IMG/VR virus record: IMGVR_UViG_3300032313_001465 | Span: 84,582 to 148,581 of that record | Strand: one strand, 5' to 3' | DNA from: a virus | Length of the DNA: 64,000 nt | Shown here: positions 11,283 through 64,000 of the stretch, piece by piece | How positions within the stretch are numbered: position 1 is the stretch's first letter | Layout of the letters: the number at the start of each line of letters is the position of its first letter | The notes under the pieces: model-generated | The model's database searches: none | Seen by the model: only the letters and a program-made list of their open reading frames with translations | What the model was told of the DNA's origin: nothing | Position numbers and translations under genes: made by a program

Positions 11283-11606
11283 ATGAAAAAATCAGAATTA
11301 AGACAAATTATTAAAGAGGAAATTAGTAAGGTGTTGAGTGAGATACAAACACCAATAGCTAATAAAACAGACAAATTTTTATTATATAGAAAGCCATCAT
11401 CTTCCCCTAGTCCGGGTCATGGTGCATATCTATTTTCATCTGGAAATACCCTAGATGAGTTATTTGATAATTGGATATTAACTATGCAATCCGGAGGATA
11501 TGGGTATAAAGGTCAATATTTAGATAATGAGCGCAAACGATTTGATATTGAACAAGAAAAATATTGGTCATCTCCTAGTTCATTTTACACACTCAAAATA
11601 AAATAA
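11283..11606 (+). CDS. Hypothetical protein with MKKSELRQIIKEE leader
   Basis: ORF with shared leader. Confidence 0.6.
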   Translation: MKKSELRQIIKEEISKVLSEIQTPIANKTDKFLLYRKPSSSPSPGHGAYLFSSGNTLDELFDNWILTMQSGGYGYKGQYLDNERKRFDIEQEKYWSSPSSFYTLKIK

Positions 11607-11611
11607 ATATA

Positions 11612-12004
11612 ATGAAAAAATCAGAATTAAGACAACTTATTAAAGAAGAAGTTGAATCTATAGTAAATGAGACACGTACTAAAGATTTTGAAGTAAAAGA
11701 TGAAATTGGTAAATTTTTTGTAGTTACATCCCCATATAAAGATAGTACTAAAGAAGATATATTATTTGATTCTGATGTTTTTCATTTTGCAAATCAAGTT
11801 AAAGAAGGACTATCATTACATGATGTTATAGGATTATACAAAAACAAATCAGATGCCAATAGAATAGCAACTGAAGCCTTAAAAGAACGTGATACCCATT
11901 TAGATGAATTAAAATCATCAATGGAAGAATTCAGAAACCATAAAAAAGAAACAGAAGATAAAAAATCAAAAGCTAAGGAATTAATTCAAAAATTAAAAAA
12001 ATAA
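11612..12004 (+). CDS. Hypothetical protein with MKKSELRQLIKEE leader
   Basis: ORF with shared leader; C-terminal coiled coil. Confidence 0.6.
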   Translation: MKKSELRQLIKEEVESIVNETRTKDFEVKDEIGKFFVVTSPYKDSTKEDILFDSDVFHFANQVKEGLSLHDVIGLYKNKSDANRIATEALKERDTHLDELKSSMEEFRNHKKETEDKKSKAKELIQKLKK

Positions 12005-23458: not shown

Positions 23459-23878
23459 ATGATTAAATTAACAGATATATTAAACGAAGCAGAGATAAAT
23501 AAATGTCCGTCTCCAACTCAAAGTATTGAGTTAAACCTTCAAAATAGACAGAAGGCAATTAATGAATATGGATATGGTCCCTTAAATCCTAATGAACCTA
23601 ATGAAAAGTTTTGGCAAGCTAAAGCAGATATGTGGAAACTTGATTCTGTAAAAGAGGCTAAAACATCACGTTGTGGTAATTGTGCGGCATTTGATGTTAC
23701 AGAAAAAACACTAAATTGTATAGCTAAAGGAATAGGAAACGATGAAGGATCAGAAGATCCATTTGACGTAATTAAAGCAGGACAATTAGGATATTGTAGG
23801 TTTTTAAAATTCAAATGTGCTGCTGCTCGAACTTGCGATGCTTGGGTTGTTGGTGGTCCAATTAAAGATCCAATGTAA
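23459..23878 (+). CDS. Cys-rich hypothetical protein with MIKL leader
   Basis: CGNC...GYC...C...CDAW, a possible metal-binding pattern. Confidence 0.55.
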   Translation: MIKLTDILNEAEINKCPSPTQSIELNLQNRQKAINEYGYGPLNPNEPNEKFWQAKADMWKLDSVKEAKTSRCGNCAAFDVTEKTLNCIAKGIGNDEGSEDPFDVIKAGQLGYCRFLKFKCAAARTCDAWVVGGPIKDPM

Positions 23879-24141
23879 TGAAACCATATACTGACGTTTT
23901 AACAACGGAAAATACAATTATTAGGGAGTTTGGTGATAACATAGACCCCGTTGAATTAAAATGGCATATGGACTCTTCTTCCCGCCACGTTACCATTTTA
24001 GAGGGTAAAGGATGGAAATATCAAGAAGATAATAAATTACCTTTGGAACTTAACGAAGGGGATTGTATATTTATACCAAAACAAACATTTCACCGTATTT
24101 ATAAAGGAACAACCCCATTAAAAATAAAAATTAAACAATGA
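23878..24141 (+). CDS. Cupin-fold protein
   Basis: WHMD...LEGKGW...GDCIFIPKQTFHRI. Confidence 0.65.
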   Translation: MKPYTDVLTTENTIIREFGDNIDPVELKWHMDSSSRHVTILEGKGWKYQEDNKLPLELNEGDCIFIPKQTFHRIYKGTTPLKIKIKQ

Positions 24142-24428
24142 AAAAACCAGAATTAAAGCAAATTATTAAAGAAGAAATACAAAAGATATTAAGTGAACAG
24201 CAAAAACGTATGCAAAAGCTTGCAGGTATTAACGAAGATAACACATTTAGTGACAATTACACAGTTAGTAATGAACAATATAAATTGATGGATAGTTATG
24301 TAAATCAACGTGCACTCCGTGATTTTCTAAATGCCGCTGAAAACATGATGGAAGATTTTCATGAAGCAGGATTTCCGGCAAGAGATGCATTTTATTGGTT
24401 TTATACTAAGCTAACTGCAAATATTTAG
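24138..24428 (+). CDS. Hypothetical protein with a double leader (MKKPELKQIIKEE + RMQKLAGINE)
   Basis: Both leader types in tandem. Confidence 0.6.
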   Translation: MKKPELKQIIKEEIQKILSEQQKRMQKLAGINEDNTFSDNYTVSNEQYKLMDSYVNQRALRDFLNAAENMMEDFHEAGFPARDAFYWFYTKLTANI

Positions 24429-24463
24429 GTAGATTATATAACAGATAAAATAAGAAATGCATA

Positions 24464-24745
24464 ATGGCAAAATTAAACAAACAATTCCGACGTATGCAAA
24501 AGCTTGCAGGAATTCTTAACGAAAACGAGGAAATAGATAATTTTATTGATGTATTAACAGATATGGCTATTAAAGCTAACATCATTAAAGACAAAGATAT
24601 AAATAAAGACGAAGTAATAGATGCATTATATGATACATGGGAAGATATGGGATTTGATGATTATGAAGAAACAGGACAGGGGATTAGTACATCAGATTAT
24701 AATAGATCTTTAGAAATATTTACCAATTATATTAAAGATAAATAA
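24464..24745 (+). CDS. Acidic hypothetical protein with RMQKLAGILNE leader
   Basis: Leader shared with 62528 and 63493. Confidence 0.6.
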   Translation: MAKLNKQFRRMQKLAGILNENEEIDNFIDVLTDMAIKANIIKDKDINKDEVIDALYDTWEDMGFDDYEETGQGISTSDYNRSLEIFTNYIKDK

Positions 24746-24756
24746 TAAAACATTTA

Positions 24757-24838
24757 AACCGATTTCATAGCCGGTTGCTCTAACAAGAGATAAAAATATG
24801 GAAGCTGTGGCTCCGATCGAAAGATTGGCGCCACTTTT
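24757..24838 (+). ncRNA. Candidate structured RNA ending in a terminator-like hairpin
   Basis: GC-rich island with three hairpins; the last (gtggc-tccgatc-gaaa-gattgg-c-gccac) is followed by tttt. Confidence 0.35.
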
Positions 24839-24840
24839 AC

Positions 24841-24870
24841 TTGGAAATTTAAACAAAATTTATTACATTA
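24841..24870 (+). promoter_or_regulatory. Bacteroidota-type promoter TTG-N20-TACATT(A)
   Basis: Same architecture as 8182 and 26521. Confidence 0.55.
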
Positions 24871-24895
24871 AAATATAAGTTAAAATAAAGAAATA

Positions 24896-26239
24896 ATGAA
24901 AAGAGACAAAATTGTAATTGTAGGTGGAGGAGTTGCAGGTATTAGTGCTGCTACTAAACTTGTAGATAATGGTTATCCTGGAGAACTTATCACAATAATT
25001 GATATGGGTAAGGATCCATATAAAAGATTACCTGAAGAAGTAATGACAGGTTTCCTAGGTGCTGGAGGTTGGAGTGATGGTAAATTGACTTACCACACAG
25101 CAATTGGAGGTCAATTATCAAAATATACAGGCGAGGATAAAGCAATGGAATTAATGGATCAAGTGATTACCAATTTTAAACGTTTTCATCCTAAACCTGA
25201 AGAAGTACAATGTTCAAATCCTGTTGAGGAACCTGAATTTATAAAACCATATTTTGGTTTACGATTGTTCCCTGTATGGCACGTTGGCACAGATTATCTA
25301 TCTGAAATTGCTAAAAATTGGTACGATTATTTAGTAGAGAAAGGTGTACAATTTCACTGGGAAACTAAGGTAAATTATATTGATTTTAATGATAATTATG
25401 TTGTTGGAGAAGTTCAAGAAAAAAATATAGATTGGCATTATGATGAACTTATTTTTGCTGTAGGTAAATCAGGTATTGATTTTGCTCAAGAATTAGCTAA
25501 TCAATATCAACTACCAGACGAACCTAAATCAGTACAAATTGGTGTTCGATTTGAAGCACCACAACACCATTTCCAAAAACTAATCGATATTTCATATGAT
25601 TTTAAACTTTATAGAAAATTTGAAGATAAAGGCGTTTCGCTTCGCTCTTTTTGTACAAACAACAATGCTGCTTATGTTGCTGTAGAAGAAACATATGGAG
25701 ACCATTCATATAATGGACATGCTAAGAAAGACGAAGCATATAGAAACAATATGACTAACTTTGGTATTTTGATGGAAATTAAAGGTATTGAAGACCCATT
25801 TACTTGGTCACGTGAGGTAGTAAATAAATTACAATCAAACAACACAGGTTTATATTACAGCCCGTCTCGTACTCCTTCAATTACATCTGAAGGCAATAAT
25901 GTAAGCGTAACTCAAATTAGTACTGAGGAATATTATGAGATGAAGAAAAATTTTGGAAAATATTTCAAATATGTTGAAGATTTTATAGTAGATATGAAAA
26001 AAGTATTCCCAACATTAGGTGATGATTGGGGTATTTATATTCCTGAGGTAAAATATTTATCACCTGAAGTAAAAGTAGATTACTCTAGTTTATCTCTAAT
26101 AGATTACCCAAATGTACACTTTGTTGGAGATGCTTTATCAGCTCGTGGTATAACAGTAGCAGGTTCTCAAGGTGTTTACGTAGCAGAACATATCCTTCAA
26201 AATACAGATTTCCCTGATTTTATAGAAAATTTTAATTAA
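24896..26239 (+). CDS. FAD-dependent oxidoreductase
   Basis: IVGGGVAG Rossmann motif; GAGGWSDGKL; FCTNN; VGDA...RGI. Confidence 0.8.
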   Translation: MKRDKIVIVGGGVAGISAATKLVDNGYPGELITIIDMGKDPYKRLPEEVMTGFLGAGGWSDGKLTYHTAIGGQLSKYTGEDKAMELMDQVITNFKRFHPKPEEVQCSNPVEEPEFIKPYFGLRLFPVWHVGTDYLSEIAKNWYDYLVEKGVQFHWETKVNYIDFNDNYVVGEVQEKNIDWHYDELIFAVGKSGIDFAQELANQYQLPDEPKSVQIGVRFEAPQHHFQKLIDISYDFKLYRKFEDKGVSLRSFCTNNNAAYVAVEETYGDHSYNGHAKKDEAYRNNMTNFGILMEIKGIEDPFTWSREVVNKLQSNNTGLYYSPSRTPSITSEGNNVSVTQISTEEYYEMKKNFGKYFKYVEDFIVDMKKVFPTLGDDWGIYIPEVKYLSPEVKVDYSSLSLIDYPNVHFVGDALSARGITVAGSQGVYVAEHILQNTDFPDFIENFN

Positions 26240-33993: not shown

Positions 33994-35205
33994 ATGAAAA
34001 CATTACAAACACAATATAATCTTATTAAAGAAGGAAAAGGAAGTAAACATGTATTTTTAAAGGAAGCAAAAAGCTTATATCCTGACATGATTACTAATTT
34101 TTCAACTTTTGAACAAACTGAAAAAATTCTTAAAAATAGAGGAGTAATTAACGAAAATTTTGTTGGATTACAACCTATTAACGATTGGGAACCATCTCCA
34201 AAACAAGACTATGAAATAGCATTTAAAAAATTCTTATCTGAAGTAGAAGAAGAAAAAGTTAAAGCTGATACTAAAAAAGTGTCTAAATATGTAGAAGATA
34301 CTGATGCTCATAGTTTTGATAATAAAGATCGTAAAAATATTGATAATTTAAGTGGTCAAGAAGTACTTAATGGGTTTTATACCGAATTAAAAGCGCCTAA
34401 AAACGCAGATAAAACGAAAGACGAATTAATGGATATCGTTACTAAAAATCTATCAAAAGATCCGTTATACTACATTAAAAACGGCCAATTTGGAACTGAA
34501 GGAGTGGGATATACTGAAGACGCTCCAGGTTTAGGTAAGCCTAAAGAAGCAAAAGGTAAATATAAATCAAGTGGATATGGCGATTTAGATAATAAACAAA
34601 CAGCTCCAAAATCAAACGTTAAGGATTCAGGAAAAAGTGAATACAAAACTGGTATGCCTAAGAAAGTAAAAGAAATGGATATGAAAGCTCAATCTTCTAA
34701 AGGTGTACAAAAAATGGCTACTCCTGGTAAACCAAAAACTATAAAACTAAATGAAATAGGAATGTTTCATGATCCTATGGGATATAATAAAGGAGCAAAA
34801 TCTCAAAAGGAAGTAGCTCGTGATATATTAATGAATGCTGGATTGTCTGATGAAGAAATAAAAAAGTTCATTAGTGATAATATGTTTAAAAAAGGAAGAT
34901 TAGATGATTTAGCTAAAGAATATATTAAATCCCTTAAAGGACTAAATGAAAATCAAGAATCAAATACAGATGTATTAAAAGATTTAATATCAAGACATGA
35001 TTGGTACTTTGAAATGAGTGATGATAATAGAAAATATAAAGATGGTCAAGCATCTGAAAAGAAAATTATGGATTTAGTAAATAGAATGGGAGATGAAGGC
35101 AAAAAAATCTATAATTCAATGGCACCAAAAGATAGACAATTAAAAGAATCCGTAGTTGATAGAATAATAGAATCTATTCTTGAAAGACTTAAGAAAATTA
35201 AATAA
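33994..35205 (+). CDS. Putative prohead core/internal protein
   Basis: Multiple LxE sites (IKE, INE, LSE, LNE x2, LKE); immediately upstream of the protease. Confidence 0.5.
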   Translation: MKTLQTQYNLIKEGKGSKHVFLKEAKSLYPDMITNFSTFEQTEKILKNRGVINENFVGLQPINDWEPSPKQDYEIAFKKFLSEVEEEKVKADTKKVSKYVEDTDAHSFDNKDRKNIDNLSGQEVLNGFYTELKAPKNADKTKDELMDIVTKNLSKDPLYYIKNGQFGTEGVGYTEDAPGLGKPKEAKGKYKSSGYGDLDNKQTAPKSNVKDSGKSEYKTGMPKKVKEMDMKAQSSKGVQKMATPGKPKTIKLNEIGMFHDPMGYNKGAKSQKEVARDILMNAGLSDEEIKKFISDNMFKKGRLDDLAKEYIKSLKGLNENQESNTDVLKDLISRHDWYFEMSDDNRKYKDGQASEKKIMDLVNRMGDEGKKIYNSMAPKDRQLKESVVDRIIESILERLKKIK

Positions 35206-35206
35206 A

Positions 35207-35827
35207 ATGAGTAAACAACTTCTAATAGAAACTAGACCATTCCAAGTTAATCCAATGCAACTTGTTGAAGGAACCAAAGGATCTTCAGGAAATCCATTAG
35301 TAGAAGGTATTTTAGCTACAGTAGAAGTAAAAAATGGAAATGGAAGATACTACAAGAGAGAGTTATGGGAAAGGGAATTAGAAACATACATGCAAAGTAT
35401 TAAAGAAAATCGTGCAACTGGAGAATTAGATCACCCCAGCACTGAAGTTATTAACTTAAAAAATGTATCTCATGCTATCAAAGATATTTGGTGGGATGGG
35501 GACAACATAATGGGTAAAATCGAAATTCTACCTACCCCATCAGGTAATATCCTAAAAGCACTTATAGAAAGCAATATCTCAGTAGGAGTATCTTCAAGAG
35601 GAATGGGTACTTTAAAACAAGAAGGCGATTTAATGGAAGTACAAGATGATTTTACATTAACATGTTGGGATTTTGTATCTACTCCTTCTAATCCAGGTAG
35701 CTGGATGCATCCAATAAATGGAATGATGAACGAAGGTTTACAATCAATTAAAACAAATAAGTATTCTAAAGTAAATTCTATTCTTTTTGAAATATTATGC
35801 GCTCACGGCACTTGCCCAATAATTTAA
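35207..35827 (+). CDS. Prohead protease (T4 gp21-like)
   Basis: NGNGRYY, GELDHP, VGVSSRGMG, WDFVSTPS. Start reassigned to MSKQLLIE. Confidence 0.93.
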   Translation: MSKQLLIETRPFQVNPMQLVEGTKGSSGNPLVEGILATVEVKNGNGRYYKRELWERELETYMQSIKENRATGELDHPSTEVINLKNVSHAIKDIWWDGDNIMGKIEILPTPSGNILKALIESNISVGVSSRGMGTLKQEGDLMEVQDDFTLTCWDFVSTPSNPGSWMHPINGMMNEGLQSIKTNKYSKVNSILFEILCAHGTCPII

Positions 35828-36028: not shown

Positions 36029-37096
36029 ATGTCAACAAACAGAGATTTATTAAAAGAAGCGATCGCTGACGCTAAAGCAGTAAAAGATACAGCAATTGCA
36101 AACGCAAAAATGGCTCTTGAAGAAGCATTTACTCCACATTTAAAATCTATGTTCTCCGCTAAAATCAACGAGATGGAAGAGGAAGATATGGATGAAGATA
36201 TGGATTACAATGACGAAAACATAGAGCAAAACGAAGCCAAAAAAAGAGGTGGAAAAAATGAAAAGGTTGTTAAAGAATTCTATTTAGAAGAAGACGAAAT
36301 CAATCTAGAAGAACTTATGTCTGAATTAGAAAAAGATGAAATGGAAGAAGTAATTAATGATCCTAGAGGTCCTAGAGCTCACGGTAATATAGCTTCTGGA
36401 GGAATGTCAGATGATGCTTTAATGGAAGCCGAAGAAGAAACTGAGGAAGAAATGAGTATTGAAGACATGTCTGAAGAAGATTTAAAAGATTTCATTGAAA
36501 GTGTAATTAAAGACATGGTTGAAGCTGGAGAAATTGAAGCTGGTTCTGAAGAAGAAGAAGAAGAAGAAGAAGAAGGTGAAAGTATTGATGAGTTCTTAAA
36601 CGAAATGGAAGGTGATGACCTTAAAGAATATGGTCAAGAACAACCTATATCAGTTGAAGACGCTTTATCAATTGTATGTAAATCATATCCAAACAATGCA
36701 TTATGTAAAGGAATGAAAGAAGGCAAAGGTGCAAAAGAAAAATCAAACAAAGAATTAGAAGAAGCATACAGAGTTATTAGATCAATGAAAAAAGACATTA
36801 ACGAAGTTAACTTACTAAACGCAAAATTACTTTACACCAATAAAATCTTCAGAGGTAAGAGCTTAACTGAATCTCAAAAGATTAATGTATTAGGTGCTTT
36901 TGACAGAGCAACAACCGCTAAAGAAGCTAAACTGGTATATGAATCATTGTTGAGTAATTTAAAAACACCAACAAGAAACATTCAAGAAAATTTAGGTAGA
37001 GCTTCCAAGTCAGTAACTGTTCCTCAAACAAAACAACCTATTATTGAATCAAATGATATGGTAGCAAGGTTCCAAAAATTAGCAGGTATTATTTAA
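36029..37096 (+). CDS. Prohead scaffold/core protein (gp22-like)
   Basis: Very acidic coiled coil between protease and capsid genes; EVNLLNAKLLY; C-terminal RFQKLAGII. Confidence 0.8.
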   Translation: MSTNRDLLKEAIADAKAVKDTAIANAKMALEEAFTPHLKSMFSAKINEMEEEDMDEDMDYNDENIEQNEAKKRGGKNEKVVKEFYLEEDEINLEELMSELEKDEMEEVINDPRGPRAHGNIASGGMSDDALMEAEEETEEEMSIEDMSEEDLKDFIESVIKDMVEAGEIEAGSEEEEEEEEEGESIDEFLNEMEGDDLKEYGQEQPISVEDALSIVCKSYPNNALCKGMKEGKGAKEKSNKELEEAYRVIRSMKKDINEVNLLNAKLLYTNKIFRGKSLTESQKINVLGAFDRATTAKEAKLVYESLLSNLKTPTRNIQENLGRASKSVTVPQTKQPIIESNDMVARFQKLAGII

Positions 37097-37136: not shown

Positions 37137-38780
37137 ATGGCAAACATTCAAAACTTACTCGAATCAGCTAACCCGTATAAATCACTACAAGGTGATGCGG
37201 CTAGATTAGCAAACAAATGGAGTAGAACAGGATTGTTAGAAGGTATCAAAAATGAAACCGAGAAAAACAATATGTCTATGATCCTTGAAAACCAAGCAAA
37301 ACAATTGGTAATTGAAGCCTCTCAAACAGGAGGTGGTACTTCTTCAACAGCTACTTTTACAGCAGGTGTTGGTGAACAATGGGCAGGTGTAGCTCTTCCG
37401 TTAGTTCGTAAGATCTTCGGTCAAATTGCATCAAAAGAATTCGTTAGTGTTCAACCAATGAACTTACCTTCAGGTCTAGTGTTTTTCTTAGATTTCCAAT
37501 ATGGTACATCTAAAAATCCATTTACAGCAGGTAAATCAATGTATGGTGATACTGGTTCTAACTTTGGTAATACAAACACTGGTGGTCTATATGGTGCTGG
37601 TAGATTTGGTTACTCAGTTAACAACACTTCATCTATTCAGGCAGCAACAACTGGTTCAGCTACTTGGTCTACTTTTGATCTAGATAGTGATTATTCAGCT
37701 TCAGCAGCCGCTGGTTCTTGGAAAACATTAACTGTAACTTTATCATCTACAACTGATTTCTTAGCAGCTAGATCATTTACTCTTACTTCTGCTTCTAACA
37801 TCGCAGTAACAGATAACTTACCTGCATTTACTACTTTTAATACAGCAAATAACACTGTAACTTTCGTTATTACTGGTTCAAAAATAACTGATGCTTTTGC
37901 TCCAGCTGGTTCATTACCAAACGTTACTTGTTCATATTCATTACAACCAACTGATAAATACAGAGGTGATTTTGAAGATGCTAACACTGCTTTGAACGCA
38001 AACAACAGTTCAATTACAATTCCTCAAATCAACGTTCAAATGAGATCTGAAGCAATTGTTGCTAAAACAAGAAAATTAAAAGCAGCATGGACTCCGGAAT
38101 TCGCTCAAGATTTAAATGCCTACCATGCATTAGATGCTGAAGCTGAATTAACTAGCATTATGAGTGAATACATCAGTTTAGAAATTGACTTAGAAATTTT
38201 GGATATGTTGATCGAAACAGCAGCCGCAGGTACTGAATATTGGTCAGCAGTAAATAACCAAAGTTTAAGTGTAAGTGGTACTACTGTAACTAACAACCCA
38301 TCTTTAGGTTTCTTTAACACACAAGGACAATGGTTCCAAACTTTAGGAACTAAAATCCAAAAATTATCAAACGCAATTCACCAAAGAACATTAAGAGGTG
38401 GTGCAAACTTCATCGTTTGTTCTCCAACAGTAGCAACTATCTTGGAATCAATCCCAGGTTTTGCAAGTACTTCTGATGGTGAAGCTTCAAAAATGACTTA
38501 TGCATTTGGTGTACAAAAAATGGGTCAATTGAATGGTAGATATCAAGTATACAAAAATCCATACATGACAGAAAACACTATATTGATGGGTTACAGAGGT
38601 CAACAATTCTTGGAAACAGGTGCAGTTTTTGCTCCATATATTCCATTGATCATGACTCCGTTAGTGTACGATCCAAACACATTTACTCCTAACAAAGGTC
38701 TATTAACTAGATATGCAAAGAAAATGGTAAGACCTGAGTTTTATGCAAAGATCTTCGTTTCAGGTTTAAATACTCTATAG
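37137..38780 (+). CDS. Major capsid protein (T4 gp23-like)
   Basis: KWSRTGLLEG, VQPMNLPSGLVF, KTRKLKAAWTPEFAQDL, APYIPL, TRYA. Confidence 0.95.
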   Translation: MANIQNLLESANPYKSLQGDAARLANKWSRTGLLEGIKNETEKNNMSMILENQAKQLVIEASQTGGGTSSTATFTAGVGEQWAGVALPLVRKIFGQIASKEFVSVQPMNLPSGLVFFLDFQYGTSKNPFTAGKSMYGDTGSNFGNTNTGGLYGAGRFGYSVNNTSSIQAATTGSATWSTFDLDSDYSASAAAGSWKTLTVTLSSTTDFLAARSFTLTSASNIAVTDNLPAFTTFNTANNTVTFVITGSKITDAFAPAGSLPNVTCSYSLQPTDKYRGDFEDANTALNANNSSITIPQINVQMRSEAIVAKTRKLKAAWTPEFAQDLNAYHALDAEAELTSIMSEYISLEIDLEILDMLIETAAAGTEYWSAVNNQSLSVSGTTVTNNPSLGFFNTQGQWFQTLGTKIQKLSNAIHQRTLRGGANFIVCSPTVATILESIPGFASTSDGEASKMTYAFGVQKMGQLNGRYQVYKNPYMTENTILMGYRGQQFLETGAVFAPYIPLIMTPLVYDPNTFTPNKGLLTRYAKKMVRPEFYAKIFVSGLNTL

Positions 38781-38888: not shown

Positions 38889-40388
38889 ATGAAAAAACAA
38901 TATAATTCAAAAATTATACAATATTCAATATCTGGGGATGTTATAAATATATTTAATTCACCACATGATGCTGTACATATTGTTAATTATGATTCTATAA
39001 TTAGTTGTTGCAAGGGAAAATATAAAACAGCAGGTGGATTTATATGGGAATTTGAAGATAATAAAATTCCAAATATATCTAAGGACGGAGACATACAATG
39101 TAAAATATGCAAATCCAAAGAATCAGTACGTTCTATGGCTATGCATTTAAGGTGGGTACATAACATAAAAACAAATGAATATGTAAAGGAGTTTGGAGAA
39201 TTTAGACCTAAAGAACTAAAATCAAATACAAAAAAACAAGAATCTGGGTTTGAATGTAAGGAATGTGGTGAAAAATTAAAAAGTAATCAAAATTTAATGT
39301 ATCATATTACAAAGTCTCACCCTGAAATAACTAAACATGACTATATAATTAAACATTTATATAAGGAAATCCATCCAACTTGTAAATGTGGATGTGGGGA
39401 GGAGGTAACAATATTAGAAAACGGTAAAAATTGTGATTTAGGTAAAGAAACGTATTCTAGAGACTATATAAAAGGACACTGGGATTGGGAAGTATTTTCA
39501 AACATAGGGAAACAATCTAAAGAAGAAATAAAATTAGTAGATTTCATAAAAACAATATATTCAGGTGAAATCCAAACCAGTGTTAGGGGGATAATCCCTA
39601 AATCAGAAATAGATATATATTTACCTGAATTAAATATTGGAATTGAATATAATGGATTATATTGGCACTCTGAAAAAGGAGGGAGATTTAAAGAATATCA
39701 TTTAGAAAAATTAAAAAAAGCTAATGAAGTAAATATTAGATTAATACAAATATTTTCAGATGAGTGGTTAAATAAAAATGAGATTACTAAAAATAAACTA
39801 ATATCAATCATTCAGCCTAAATCAAATAGAGTATATGCTCGAAAGTGTAATATAAAAGAAATATCATCAACTGATAAAAATATTTTTTTAAATAAATATC
39901 ATATTCAAGGTGAAGATAGAAGTACATATAAGTTAGGAATTTTTAATTTAGATGAATTGATAGGAGTTATGACTTTTTCCAAACCTAGAATATCATTAGG
40001 AGGTAATATAAAATTAGAAGATACTTATGAATTATCAAGGTACGCCTCTTCAACATATATTGTTGGTGGAGCTGCTAAATTAATAAAATATTTTAAAAAA
40101 CTCATCAACCCAAAATTAATATATTCATATTCAGATAATAGATGGACTAATCCTAACAATAATATGTACCTGAAATTAGGGTTTAAACATGTTAAAACTT
40201 CCTCCCCTAATTATTTTTATACAAAAAATTATCTAACACGAATTCATAGATATAATTTTAATAAATTTAATCTTAAAAAAATGGGAGCAGATGTACAAAA
40301 TCATACTGAGTTTCAAATTATGGAAGGATTGGGATATACTAAAATATGGGACTGTGGTTCTTCTAGGTATGAGTTAAAATTTAGTTAA
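38889..40388 (+). CDS. Homing-endonuclease-like protein (NUMOD1 + C2H2 fingers + Hef/Vsr-like nuclease)
   Basis: TAGGFIW; CKIC...HLRWVH; EIDIYLPELNIGIEYNGLYWH; YARKC; IWDCG. Confidence 0.7.
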   Translation: MKKQYNSKIIQYSISGDVINIFNSPHDAVHIVNYDSIISCCKGKYKTAGGFIWEFEDNKIPNISKDGDIQCKICKSKESVRSMAMHLRWVHNIKTNEYVKEFGEFRPKELKSNTKKQESGFECKECGEKLKSNQNLMYHITKSHPEITKHDYIIKHLYKEIHPTCKCGCGEEVTILENGKNCDLGKETYSRDYIKGHWDWEVFSNIGKQSKEEIKLVDFIKTIYSGEIQTSVRGIIPKSEIDIYLPELNIGIEYNGLYWHSEKGGRFKEYHLEKLKKANEVNIRLIQIFSDEWLNKNEITKNKLISIIQPKSNRVYARKCNIKEISSTDKNIFLNKYHIQGEDRSTYKLGIFNLDELIGVMTFSKPRISLGGNIKLEDTYELSRYASSTYIVGGAAKLIKYFKKLINPKLIYSYSDNRWTNPNNNMYLKLGFKHVKTSSPNYFYTKNYLTRIHRYNFNKFNLKKMGADVQNHTEFQIMEGLGYTKIWDCGSSRYELKFS

Positions 40389-61776: not shown

Positions 61777-62205
61777 ATGAAAGTAACAGAATTTAGAAAA
61801 CTAATCCGAGAAGAAATAAGTAAGGTGTTGAAAGAAGAGAAACTTCCTGAAGACACAAAATACGATATTGATGATTTAATTGATAATGTTATTATAACCA
61901 CACTTATTGAAGATATGGGATTAACCCCTATAGGTCTGACTCAAGCTATTCATTATTTGATTCAAAAATTACAAATAAAGTATCAACAAATAAAAGGTGA
62001 AAATAGTTTAGCTGAAAATAGTATTAATACTTATTACAAAGACTTAATAATCCAACAAATTAATAAACGATTGTTTAAAATATTTGATAGAGGTGGAATG
62101 GTAGAATCTGAATACCAAGATCTTCAAAATTATCTTAAAATGTTAGATGATAAAAACAACAAACAATCAAAAACAAACAAAAACAATGAAAACAACAGAA
62201 TTTAG
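61777..62205 (+). CDS. Cassette gene with MKVTEFRKLIREE leader
   Basis: Shared leader. Confidence 0.6.
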   Translation: MKVTEFRKLIREEISKVLKEEKLPEDTKYDIDDLIDNVIITTLIEDMGLTPIGLTQAIHYLIQKLQIKYQQIKGENSLAENSINTYYKDLIIQQINKRLFKIFDRGGMVESEYQDLQNYLKMLDDKNNKQSKTNKNNENNRI

Positions 62206-62491
62206 AAAACTAATCCGAGAAGAAGTTCGTAAAGTAGTTAAAGAAAATGAATTTAATGATTTAAATTCAATAGTTCAAAAACTTAAACCAAGATGGGGTG
62301 ATGTATCTATAAAAGATAATAAAATACGGTTGAGAACTTATTATAAGAACGGTAATCTAAAAAATTGGTATACTATTGAAAAAATAGGTGATGATATGTA
62401 TCGTTTTGGTAGAGGAGGAAAACAATTAAGAGATTGGTCTTTAGATGATTTAATGTTTAATCTTGTATATAACAAAAATATTAGTTTATAA
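62186..62491 (+). CDS. Cassette gene with MKTTEFRKLIREE leader
   Basis: Start reassigned from 62147. Confidence 0.6.
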   Translation: MKTTEFRKLIREEVRKVVKENEFNDLNSIVQKLKPRWGDVSIKDNKIRLRTYYKNGNLKNWYTIEKIGDDMYRFGRGGKQLRDWSLDDLMFNLVYNKNISL

Positions 62492-62527: not shown

Positions 62528-62926
62528 ATGAAAAAACAAATACTAAGCGAACAATTTCGACGTATGCAAAAATTAGCAGGAATTATTAATGAAGGTCAAG
62601 AAAAATATCCAAAAGGTTTTACTCCATATACACCCACCAAAGAAGACGATGAAAATTATGATGGAAAAGTATTAGCTGCCTATACAGCACCTATGGATGG
62701 GTGGGATGAAAATAATTCGGATACTGTAGTAGTTATGAAAGATGAGGAGGGCTTTTGGGTAGATGGATATCTTAGCTTTGGTGATTTTGAAGACGAGGAA
62801 GGTACAGGACCATTCAAAACCCAAAAAGAAGCCGAAGATAAGGCTTATGAAATAATGGAAGACATTGTAGATAATTGGGAAGATGAGGATTATGATGATG
62901 AAGATGATGACGACGATGATTATTAA
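62528..62926 (+). CDS. Acidic cassette gene with QFRRMQKLAGIINE leader
   Basis: First 66 bp identical to 63493; poly-Asp tail. Confidence 0.65.
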   Translation: MKKQILSEQFRRMQKLAGIINEGQEKYPKGFTPYTPTKEDDENYDGKVLAAYTAPMDGWDENNSDTVVVMKDEEGFWVDGYLSFGDFEDEEGTGPFKTQKEAEDKAYEIMEDIVDNWEDEDYDDEDDDDDDY

Positions 62927-62970
62927 TTAAAAATAAACAATGAAAGCAACAGAATTTAGAAAACTAATCC
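62894..62970 (+). repeat. 77-bp direct repeat (second copy 63799-63875)
   Basis: Spans the poly-Asp tail, spacer and the next leader. Confidence 0.9.
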
Positions 62971-63461
62971 GTGAAGAAGTTAGAAAAATATTAACTGAAG
63001 CAAAATCCGAAAATTATCCTTTTATGTCAACTCCAGAGCAAGAAAAATTATATGATAGACTTGCTACAGACTTAGAAAAATTTATAAATAATATAGCTAC
63101 AAAATTAGAAATTAATCCTTCAAATATTAGAATGATATGTAGTGGATTAGGGGATAAAGGAGAATATAGAAATAAAGGATTAGTAGTTCAAATTAAAGCT
63201 AATGATAGTAAATGGAAAGGGATACATGGTAATAATCTTATTATACAAACTATAAATGACGAAGGTGTATTAATAGATACAAAAGAGGTTGAAATAAAAG
63301 GATCTAAAAATAAAGAATTAAGAGATATTTGGAATAAAGCAATAGATCTAGAAATGGACGATTATGTGTCACAGTTTAATACAAAATTAGCAAGTTCACT
63401 TACCCCAGAAGAAGCAAAATTAATACATCAATATACTCCAGTAATAATAACTGGTAAATAA
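62940..63461 (+). CDS. Cassette gene with MKATEFRKLIREE leader
   Basis: Shared leader. Confidence 0.6.
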   Translation: MKATEFRKLIREEVRKILTEAKSENYPFMSTPEQEKLYDRLATDLEKFINNIATKLEINPSNIRMICSGLGDKGEYRNKGLVVQIKANDSKWKGIHGNNLIIQTINDEGVLIDTKEVEIKGSKNKELRDIWNKAIDLEMDDYVSQFNTKLASSLTPEEAKLIHQYTPVIITGK

Positions 63462-63492: not shown

Positions 63493-63831
63493 ATGAAAAA
63501 ACAAATACTAAGCGAACAATTTCGACGTATGCAAAAATTAGCAGGAATTATTAATGAAAGCGAATTTAAAGTGGGGGATACAATAAAAATACCATTTACT
63601 TTATCTACAGGTGATGAAAGTGAAGGAGAAATTTTAGCAATTTCTACATATTTATCTAACAAAAAAGCAATTGATAAGGCTATTAGAGACAGTGGATGGG
63701 AAGGTGGAGAAAAAGAAGAATTAACTTGGTACAAAATAAAAACTCCAGATGGGATCGAATGGATAGATAGTGAGGAATTATCGGTAATGGGTGATGAAGA
63801 TGATGAAGATGATGACGACGATGATTATTAA
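63493..63831 (+). CDS. Acidic cassette gene with QFRRMQKLAGIINE leader
   Basis: Leader and tail identical to 62528; different middle (FKVGDTIK, SH3/KOW-like). Confidence 0.65.
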   Translation: MKKQILSEQFRRMQKLAGIINESEFKVGDTIKIPFTLSTGDESEGEILAISTYLSNKKAIDKAIRDSGWEGGEKEELTWYKIKTPDGIEWIDSEELSVMGDEDDEDDDDDDY

Positions 63832-63844
63832 TTAAAAATAAACA

Positions 63845-64000
63845 ATGAAAGCAACAGAATTTAGAAAACTAATCCAAGAAGAAGTTCGTAAAGTATTAAA
63901 CGAGGCTATGTCTTGGGACAAAAACACAATTAACAAATTTTTTGCATATTTGAAACGTCAGCACGGTATGAAAGCAGTCCCTGAATTTAAAACAGATACC
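63845..64000 (+). CDS. Cassette gene with MKATEFRKLIQEE leader, 3'-truncated
   Basis: Manual translation MKATEFRKLIQEEVRKVLNEAMSWDK..., open to the window end. Confidence 0.6.
   Translation, partial: MKATEFRKLIQEEVRKVLNEAMSWDKNTINKFFAYLKRQHGMKAVPEFKTDT

What the first reader, a model, noticed from the sequence alone, without database searches (positions are those of the whole stretch)
37058..37096. Scaffold C-terminus is reused as an N-terminal tag on four accessory proteins
Seen: the scaffold ends IIE-SNDMVARFQKLAGII*. Genes 24138, 24464, 62528 and 63493 begin with (QF)RRMQKLAGI(I/L)NE or a close variant. The DNA caaaaattagcagg(t/a)attatt matches at 20 of 21 nt between the scaffold and the 62528/63493 cassettes. 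Known: in several phages (e.g. P22) the scaffold C-terminal helix is the coat-binding element. Inference: cargo proteins mimic the coat-binding helix to be co-assembled and are released by cleavage at the following INE/LNE.
Basis: partly seen in the sequence, partly recalled or inferred. Interest (0 to 1): 0.85.

Follow-up and report, generated by a model that had tools for sequence, protein, structure and literature searches.

The report
Scaffold tail peptide reused as cargo tag
In this T4-like Flavobacterium-type phage, the short peptide that ends the head-scaffold protein also starts four small proteins, just before a head-protease cut site. It is therefore probably a clip-off "load me into the head" tag copied from the scaffold's own anchor, but no binding or cutting has been measured.

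Summary
QKLAGI occurs five times in the window and in the whole 148.6-kb genome, against 0.00 expected. One copy is the last residues of the gp22-type scaffold. The other four lie in the N-terminal leaders of genes 24138, 24464, 62528 and 63493, each followed directly by I/L-N-E.

The pattern is not private to this phage. Over 7,800 scaffold homologues exist, and every C-terminus read ends in this motif. T4 gp22 and a cyanophage gp22 keep a degenerate version. The 22-residue leader matches 919 protein clusters, nearly always at residue 1 and followed by [IL]-x-E. Some cargo carries the tag at the C-terminus or at both ends.

An AlphaFold2 model shows a helical domain, a roughly 30-residue disordered linker with cut sites, and a terminal helix plus 4-residue hook. 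This resembles the 80alpha scaffold/CpmB coat-binding element.

Best reading: a portable prohead-docking tag shared by scaffold and cargo and severed by the S77 protease. The partner (capsid protein or scaffold core) is unresolved. The one complex prediction gave no answer.

The tag does not co-vary with each genome's scaffold variant, and the 20/21-nt DNA match is explained by codon bias. The scan has noted T4-style leader systems on more than 100 other genomes. Identity with the scaffold end is the new twist: a new variant of a known kind.

The parts
35180..35827 (+). Prohead protease (T4 gp21 type, MEROPS S77)
   Evidence: Pfam PF03420 Peptidase_S77, E = 3.8e-29. It lies directly upstream of the scaffold, as in the T4 gene order 21-22-23.
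36029..37096 (+). gp22-type scaffold protein: 355 aa, pI 4.4, 16 [ILV]-x-E sites
   Evidence: It lies between the S77 protease and the Gp23 capsid gene. A weak, collinear hhalign match to T4 gp22 (E = 5e-4, shared LTESQK) is. At least 7,853 homologues were found.
37040..37048 (+). I-I-E, predicted protease cut site that would sever the terminal peptide from the scaffold body
   Evidence: Read from the sequence. The T4 gp21 rule L/I-x-E is from PMC9026906. An [ILV]-x-E lies 5-9 residues before the motif's first residue in 65 of 89 related scaffolds.
37049..37093 (+). Scaffold C-terminal 15-residue peptide SNDMVARFQKLAGII: predicted amphipathic helix plus 4-residue hook, the proposed docking element
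   Evidence: AF2 model: helix at residues 113-121 of the last 125, final four residues non-helical, preceded by a low-pLDDT linker. R-x-QKLAGI is invariant in alignments A2 and A3. All 120 best homologues end this way.
37137..38780 (+). Major capsid protein (Gp23 family); residues 1-60 (37137-37316) form the predicted propeptide and are the candidate docking surface
   Evidence: Pfam PF07068, E = 2.6e-78. K27, W28, G32-G36, M46, L50-K55 and E60 are invariant in 35 MCPs down to 37% identity.
24138..24236 (+). 33-residue tandem leader (family B followed by family C, ending ..QKLAGI-N-E) of a 96-aa acidic protein (gene 24138-24428)
   Evidence: payload pI 4.4.
24464..24523 (+). 20-residue family C leader ending QKLAGI-L-N-E of a 93-aa acidic protein (gene 24464-24745)
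   Evidence: payload pI 4.05.
62528..62593 (+). 22-residue family C leader ending QKLAGI-I-N-E of a 132-aa acidic protein with a poly-Asp tail (gene 62528-62926)
   Evidence: the same payload with the same leader occurs in metagenomes (P0137).
63493..63558 (+). 22-residue family C leader, identical to that of 62528, of a 112-aa acidic protein with a poly-Asp tail (gene 63493-63831)

Best explanation
The peptide [F/V]-x-R-[M/F/W]-Q-K-L-A-G-I-I is a portable prohead-docking element of helix-plus-hook shape. In the gp22-type scaffold it sits at the extreme C-terminus. A roughly 30-residue disordered linker carrying protease sites tethers it to a conserved helical domain. A near-exact copy, followed directly by I/L-N-E, forms the N-terminal leader of four small acidic proteins. 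I propose that scaffold and cargo dock through this element to the same conserved site inside the assembling prohead. The most likely site is the inner face or N-terminal propeptide of the Gp23-type capsid protein. The S77 prohead protease then cuts at the flanking [ILV]-x-E and frees the scaffold body or the payload from its anchor. Shown: the motif identity, its positions, its conservation, the flanking site pattern, the protease family and the predicted helix-linker architecture. Inferred: docking, the identity of the partner, cleavage, and packaging. I put about 0.6 on shared docking regardless of partner and about 0.4 on the full chain with the capsid protein as partner.
For: 1. There are five in-frame copies against 0.00 expected.
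2. Of 123 IMG/VR matches to the back-translated heptapeptide, 89 are extreme C-termini of 200-590-aa scaffold-like proteins and 26 are N-terminal leaders. These use 44 and 23 distinct DNA 21-mers, so selection acts on the peptide.
3. Flanks not fixed by the search agree between the two classes: R at -1 in 80/89 and 23/26, F/V at -3, I after GI.
4. All 26 leaders, and 126 of the 131 library representatives in which the motif was located, are followed by [IL(V)]-x-E. Similarity between leader proteins stops at that E.
5. The leader profile finds 919 representatives at 50% identity, and 129 of the 141 newly inspected carry the motif within the first 30 residues. Sixty-three leader proteins fall into 30 payload clusters.
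6. Every genome examined that carries leaders and includes the head-gene region also has a scaffold ending in the motif family: this genome, immuto, G002, G005 and G008.
7. The tag also occurs C-terminally on non-scaffold proteins, and at both ends of one 603-aa cargo. It therefore works as a terminal module in either position.
8. The AF2 model shows a helical domain, a disordered linker and a terminal helix plus hook. The solved 80alpha scaffold/CpmB coat-binding element is likewise an 11-residue helix plus a 5-residue hook (PMC5644958).
9. The capsid propeptide is as invariant as the motif. In T4 the gp23 N-terminal region is thought to contact the core (PMC9546572).
10. The phage encodes an S77 protease, and T4 gp21 cuts after L/I-x-E (PMC9026906).
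Against: There is no direct evidence of binding, cleavage or packaging, and no virion proteome for this phage or for the cultured relative immuto. In T4, targeted proteins enter the core before the shell forms and co-purify with gp22 (PMC9026906), which favours a core partner. The tag does not follow the scaffold variant of its own genome. Five of ten related genomes have the scaffold motif but no leaders. Payloads are mostly acidic, with median pI 4.4, unlike the basic T4 internal proteins. They may therefore be auxiliary core proteins rather than injected cargo.
Confidence: 0.4

Rival explanations
1. Same tag logic, different partner. The motif is a scaffold-scaffold (core) assembly element. 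It would bind, for example, the conserved helical domain of a neighbouring gp22 molecule. Leader proteins then co-polymerise into the core as in the T4 capsid-targeting paradigm, independently of the capsid protein.
For: In T4 the internal proteins are built into the core before the shell and co-purify with gp22 (PMC9026906). The scaffold's C-terminal helical domain is itself strongly conserved, with E29, N34, L37, Y39, N41, L49 and E51 invariant in A3. It could therefore be the equally invariant partner.
Against: A tethered terminal helix on a long disordered linker looks like the coat-binding ends of the 80alpha, P22 and herpesvirus scaffolds rather than a core-forming coiled coil. T4's own targeting sequence does not resemble the gp22 C-end, so the T4 data do not speak to this motif.
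Confidence: 0.25
2. Shared ancestry without shared docking. The leader arose by capture of the scaffold gene's 3' end and now serves only as a removable propeptide. It might keep the payload inactive, or mark it as a protease substrate. It spreads as a recombination cassette, and the resemblance to the scaffold end is historical.
For: Leaders form their own nearly invariant 22-residue family that does not track the local scaffold variant. They sit in cassette arrays with identical leader DNA and in a syntenic hotspot upstream of the oxidoreductase gene.
Against: Synonymous DNA variation with an invariant peptide shows strong purifying selection on exactly the residues that are invariant in scaffolds. 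The tag recurs at C-termini and at both ends of cargo, which a simple propeptide role does not explain.
Confidence: 0.15
3. The motif is a docking site for the prohead protease that promotes cleavage at the adjacent site. It is not a capsid address.
For: Every copy lies next to an [ILV]-x-E site, and scaffold and leader proteins are both expected protease substrates.
Against: The motif lies downstream of the site in scaffolds and upstream of it in leaders, so no fixed geometry relative to the scissile bond exists. T4 gp21 is described as needing only L/I-x-E (PMC9026906). The capsid propeptide site has no such motif.
Confidence: 0.07
4. Chance, or a DNA-level element (a repeat, or a regulatory or recombination signal) that happens to be translated.
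For: A 20/21-nt identity exists between the scaffold and two cassettes.
Against: Five hits against 0.00 expected. All copies are in frame at protein termini. Dozens of synonymous DNA versions occur across relatives. The 20/21 identity is expected from codon bias.
Confidence: 0.01

Closest known systems
Phage T4 capsid targeting sequence (CTS) of IPII/IPIII, with gp21 processing
   Same: A short N-terminal peptide sits on unrelated proteins and ends in an L/I-x-E site for an S77 prohead protease. The genes lie in variable cassettes, and the head module is gp20-21-22-23.
   Different: The T4 CTS (10 residues, confirmed twice in the T4 genome) has no sequence similarity to leader C and does not resemble the T4 gp22 C-terminus. 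Its target is unknown and is thought to be the core. Here the leader is a copy of the scaffold's conserved C-terminal peptide, is 20-33 residues long, and its payloads are acidic.
80alpha scaffold protein and SaPI1 CpmB (shared C-terminal helix-and-hook, RIIK motif)
   Same: A second protein carries a copy of the scaffold's C-terminal amphipathic helix plus short hook and uses the same site on the capsid protein N-arm (PMC5644958). The predicted shape here is a 9-residue helix plus a 4-residue hook, often ending IIK.
   Different: CpmB is a satellite-encoded alternative scaffold with the motif at its C-terminus, and it redirects capsid size. Here the phage's own small proteins carry the motif at the N-terminus, followed by a protease site. 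There is no sequence homology, and binding is not shown.
Herpesvirus protease/scaffold and lambda C/Nu3 nested genes
   Same: From my own knowledge: a shared scaffold C-terminal capsid-binding tail brings another protein into the procapsid, and in herpesviruses that tail is cut off by the maturation protease.
   Different: In those systems the sharing arises from nested in-frame genes and concerns only the protease. Here independent genes carry a transplanted copy at the opposite terminus.
Encapsulin cargo-loading peptides
   Same: From my own knowledge: a short terminal peptide on a flexible linker addresses diverse cargo to the interior of an HK97-fold shell.
   Different: Encapsulins have no scaffold and no proteolytic removal, use a different motif, and are bacterial compartments rather than virions.

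Membership tests
T4-type capsid-targeting propeptide system | Phage encodes an S77 (gp21-type) prohead protease with a gp22/gp23-type head module | tested here: met
   PF03420 at 3.8e-29 and PF07068 at 2.6e-78, with syntenic gene order.
T4-type capsid-targeting propeptide system | Shared short N-terminal peptide on otherwise unrelated proteins, ending in L/I-x-E | tested here: met
   Four genes here; 30 payload clusters among 63 proteins; 919 representatives; [IL]-x-E follows the motif in 126 of 131.
T4-type capsid-targeting propeptide system | Sequence similarity to the T4 CTS of IPII/IPIII | tested here: not met
   Leader C shares nothing with the T4 decapeptide. Only the separate leader family B looks loosely similar by eye.
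T4-type capsid-targeting propeptide system | Leader is sufficient for packaging and is removed by the protease in vivo | not testable with these tools
   This needs virion mass spectrometry or reporter fusions. No proteome was found for immuto.
gp22-type head scaffold | Gene between protease and major capsid genes; acidic, helical, with many protease sites | tested here: met
   pI 4.4, 16 sites; helical.
gp22-type head scaffold | Sequence homology to T4 gp22 | tested here: inconclusive
   hhalign probability 31%, E = 5e-4, collinear, with shared LTESQK. The C-termini align by eye in T4, S-SSM7 and RM378. No Pfam or PHROG hit.
Scaffold C-terminus mimicry (80alpha SP/CpmB type) | Second protein carries the scaffold's C-terminal helix-and-hook sequence | tested here: met
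   Identity over RxQKLAGI(I) plus the flanks. hhalign aligns the scaffold end with a leader. Helix plus hook is predicted.
Scaffold C-terminus mimicry (80alpha SP/CpmB type) | Both peptides bind the same site on the capsid protein | not testable with these tools
   This needs a prohead structure or binding assays. The one complex prediction gave no verdict and counts neither way.

The most novel reading that the evidence does not exclude
An abundant clade of aquatic T4-like phages runs a natural cargo-loading system resembling that of encapsulins. The coat-binding helix-and-hook of the gp22 scaffold has been copied onto the N-terminus of hundreds of unrelated proteins, and sometimes onto the C-terminus or both ends. 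Cargo then competes with the scaffold for the same site on the capsid protein and is released by the head protease. This would give the first molecular explanation of how T4-type phages address proteins to the head.
Probability: 0.35. Interest if true: 0.75.

Novelty: new variant of a known kind. Interest (0 to 1): 0.6.

Why it matters
How T4-type phages direct internal proteins into the prohead is still called mysterious (PMC9958956), and no scaffold-capsid contact has been resolved for this lineage (PMC9546572). Here the tag is recognisably the scaffold's own, most conserved terminal peptide. That converts the question into a concrete two-peptide, one-site hypothesis, testable in a cultured relative (Flavobacterium phage immuto carries two such leaders). 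The tag also marks hundreds of unknown, mostly acidic proteins as candidate virion-internal or core proteins in a very common group of aquatic phages. It is short, modular and seems to work at either terminus, which is of practical interest for loading proteins into phage capsids.

Tried and rejected
- Complex prediction of the capsid protein (A1) with the scaffold's last 50 residues (A2) returned no answer, with scores 0.00 and 0.00, and the controls were not run. It counts neither for nor against binding.
- A short-peptide tblastn against cultured phages found only the immuto phages for the leader and nothing for a distant-clade scaffold tail.
- Pfam and PHROGs gave nothing for the scaffold or the four tagged proteins. 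A PDB profile search with the scaffold tail gave only a chance hit, APC16 at E = 0.88.
- An Atlas search on the 63493 payload gave only weak small-barrel look-alikes and no function.
- Pfam on ten larger leader proteins gave one HD domain.
- Co-variation of tag and scaffold end was sought in ten genomes and not found, apart from G002 and the two ends of P0252.
- I tested whether the T4 CTS mimics the gp22 N-terminus, or whether any T4 protein mimics the gp22 C-terminus. Neither stands out in a whole-genome scan.
- The idea that leader family B mimics this scaffold's N-terminus was rejected by eye, with only a few similar positions.
- The 20/21-nt DNA identity as a sign of recent recombination was rejected.
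- No paper contains the motif string.

Full report
**Setting**

The window is the last 64 kb of a single-contig 148,581-bp phage genome with 30% G+C. Its nearest named relatives are the Flavobacterium phages vB_FspM_immuto, whose capsid gene is 75% identical at the nucleotide level. The head module is T4-like. It comprises an S77 prohead protease (35180-35827; PF03420, 3.8e-29), an acidic 355-aa protein with no family hit (36029-37096), and a Gp23-family major capsid protein (37137-38780; 2.6e-78).

I call the middle gene the gp22-type scaffold on several grounds. Its position matches the T4 gene order 21-22-23. It has pI 4.4 and 16 [ILV]-x-E sites, and its predicted structure is helical. It also gives a weak but collinear profile match to T4 gp22, with E = 5e-4 and a shared LTESQK.

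**Observation**

The scaffold ends ..IIE-SNDMVARFQKLAGII-stop. Genes 24138, 24464, 62528 and 63493 carry K/R-R-MQKLAGI followed by NE, LNE, INE and INE within their first 33 residues. The back-translated hexapeptide hits the window five times against 0.00 expected. These are the only hits in the whole genome.

The 20/21-nt DNA identity is real. With this genome's codon usage, however, two codings of the same seven residues should share 17.4 of 21 nt, and P(>=20) is 0.058. The DNA identity is therefore not independent evidence. Gene 24138 carries a second leader type in front of this one.

**The scaffold end is the most conserved part of a very large family**

A search with the last 120 residues found at least 7,853 proteins with E <= 1e-3. 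None has a Pfam domain, and all 120 best hits end in R-F-QKLAGI followed by I, K or N. Other clades carry variant endings:

| Source | Scaffold ending |
|---|---|
| Many IMG/VR contigs | RMQKLAGII(K) |
| immuto | RWQKLAGIIK |
| G002 | RWQKIAGIK |
| G008 | RMKKLAGL |
| Microcystis phage Mel-JY01 | RMKKLAGIVK |
| Rhodothermus phage RM378 | RIKRLAGL |

T4 gp22 (..VYAKVASRF) and cyanophage S-SSM7 gp22 (..AYLDALGRMK) keep a degenerate pattern at the very end: aromatic, x, x, hydrophobic or Ala, Ala or Leu, small, x, hydrophobic. That alignment is by eye only. In alignments A2 and A3, R, Q, K, L, A, G and I of the motif are invariant while the surrounding sequence varies.

**The leader is widespread and modular**

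- 89 matches are extreme C-termini of scaffold-like proteins and 26 are N-terminal leaders.
- Of the 8 others, five are internal copies followed by I-S/T-E, and three look like chance.
- The two main classes use 44 and 23 distinct DNA 21-mers, so selection acts on the peptide.
- Positions the search did not fix agree between the classes: R at -1 (80/89 and 23/26), F or V at -3, and I after GI.
- All 26 leaders are followed by [ILV]-x-E.
- 65 of 89 scaffolds have such a site 5-9 residues before the motif's first residue.

A protein search with the first 40 residues of 63493 returned 60 small proteins sharing an almost invariant 22-residue leader. Their similarity stops at the E of the cut site. 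Sixty-three leader proteins fall into 30 payload clusters with median pI 4.4.

A profile of the leader, scored against 1.84 billion representatives, found 919 proteins at E <= 0.001. Of the 141 newly inspected, 129 carry the motif within the first 30 residues. Of the 131 in which the motif was located, 126 have [IL]-x-E directly after it.

The tag also occurs at the C-terminus of non-scaffold proteins. One example is a 77-aa protein in G005. Another is a roughly 210-aa acidic protein found in L014 and L017. The tag also occurs at both ends of a 603-aa cargo, P0252, where the C-terminal copy is preceded by I-T-E just as in scaffolds.

**Co-occurrence and co-variation**

I read ten relatives in full, as whole genomes or long fragments. 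Five carry leaders and the head-gene region, and all five also have a scaffold ending in the motif family. They are this genome (4 leaders), immuto (2), G002 (2), G005 (4 plus one C-terminal tag) and G008 (3). G001, G003, G004, Mel-JY01 and RM378 have the scaffold motif but no leaders.

The leaders do not follow the local scaffold variant. They keep M-QKLAG-I/V/L where the scaffold has F (this genome, G005), W (immuto, G002) or M-KKLAG-L (G008). Only two cases hint at co-variation. In G002, QKIAGI appears in the scaffold and in one of two leaders. In P0252, QKIAGL appears at both ends. The picture is co-conservation of a core motif, with leaders forming their own horizontally shared family. 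In T4 nothing comparable exists, because no T4 protein resembles the gp22 C-end.

**Architecture**

AlphaFold2 on the last 125 residues, with 40 aligned homologues, gave a mean pLDDT of 80.

- Residues 2-80 form a confident helical domain.
- Residues 81-112 form a low-confidence linker that contains the conserved I-x-E sites.
- Residues 113-121 (DMVARFQKL) form a short helix.
- The final four residues are non-helical.

The helix is amphipathic, with a hydrophobic moment of 0.5-0.7 in scaffold and leader versions. This matches the solved 80alpha scaffold C-terminus, an 11-residue amphipathic helix plus a 5-residue hook that binds beside the capsid protein's N-arm. The satellite protein CpmB copies that element to use the same site (PMC5644958).

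The capsid protein's predicted propeptide is unusually conserved. K27, W28, G32-G36, M46, L50-K55 and E60 are invariant in 35 sequences down to 37% identity. T4 work places the gp23 N-terminal region in contact with the core but has not resolved the contact (PMC9546572).

**Mechanism**

The most economical reading is that the motif is a detachable anchor. In the scaffold, cleavage upstream of the anchor frees the body. In cargo, cleavage downstream of it frees the payload. Both layouts fit the T4 gp21 rule L/I-x-E (PMC9026906).

Which surface the anchor binds is open. Analogy with 80alpha, P22, T7 and SPP1, the tethered-helix architecture and the invariant capsid propeptide all favour the capsid protein. 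T4 data favour the core, since internal proteins enter naked cores and co-purify with gp22. The single complex prediction gave no verdict.

The acidic payloads may be auxiliary core proteins rather than injected effectors. Two of them end in poly-Asp tails like the acidic tail of the T4 core protein gp67.

**Comparison and novelty**

The system works like the T4 capsid targeting sequence, and this scan has already noted more than 100 T4-style leader systems on other genomes. It fails the sequence criterion for the T4 CTS itself. Three things are new:

- the leader is a copy of the scaffold's conserved terminal peptide;
- that peptide can sit at either terminus of cargo;
- the arrangement is common in an abundant, mostly uncultured clade.

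No paper in the library contains the motif. Recent T4 reviews call the targeting mechanism mysterious (PMC9958956).

**Verdict**

This is a new variant of a known kind, of moderate-to-high interest because it makes an old question directly testable.

Noticed in passing
window 61777-62205, 62186-62491, 62940-63461, 63845-64000, 11283-11603, 11612-12001; genome 387-788: A second leader family (B: M-K-x-T/S-E-F/L-R/K-x-L/I-I-R/K-E-E) sits on other small proteins and loosely resembles the T4 CTS by eye. A third family (A: M-I/V-K-L-x-D-L/I-L-x-E) sits on at least six more genes. The array of B and C cassettes runs across the contig ends, so the genome is probably circularly permuted or terminally redundant.
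   Followed up: partly
window 24138-24236: Gene 24138 carries leaders B and C in tandem, which suggests that leaders are stackable modules.
   Followed up: partly
window 62894-62926 and 63799-63831: The two cassette proteins 62528 and 63493 end in the same poly-Asp-Tyr tail. The T4 prohead core protein gp67 also has a long acidic C-terminal tail. These may therefore be auxiliary core proteins rather than injected cargo.
   Followed up: no
L232:1-5249 compared with window 23878-26239: A metagenomic contig is syntenic with the region upstream of the FAD oxidoreductase gene (24896) but holds different tagged proteins there. One is a 232-aa protein with the tag near its C-end. Another is a 603-aa protein (P0252) tagged at both ends. 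This slot looks like a cargo-cassette hotspot.
   Followed up: partly
window 37137-37316: The capsid protein's predicted propeptide (cut probably after V-I-E at residue 60) is as conserved as the mature fold, with the K-W..G-L-L-E-G and L-E-N-Q-A-K blocks invariant. T4 gp23 has the related N-K-W-K-P-L-L-E-G.
   Followed up: partly
window 36029-37096 and relatives: The scaffold family (at least 7,853 proteins) has no Pfam or PHROG model. Sources name it wrongly, for example 'DNA polymerase phi-like protein' in immuto and 'RNA polymerase subunit L' or 'RNase H-like nuclease' in JGI records.
   Followed up: no
window 38889-40388: A 499-aa protein with Zn-finger-like repeats and a sub-threshold Mom-family hit lies directly downstream of the capsid gene, where T4 carries the homing endonuclease segD. 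It may be a mobile or DNA-modifying gene.
   Followed up: no
P0181, P0184, P0290, P0218, P0272: A few database proteins carry the leader twice in tandem, or internally. One example lies after an HD domain, and others lie near the C-end of 870-1000-aa proteins. These are either polyproteins with the leader as a linker or merged gene calls.
   Followed up: no
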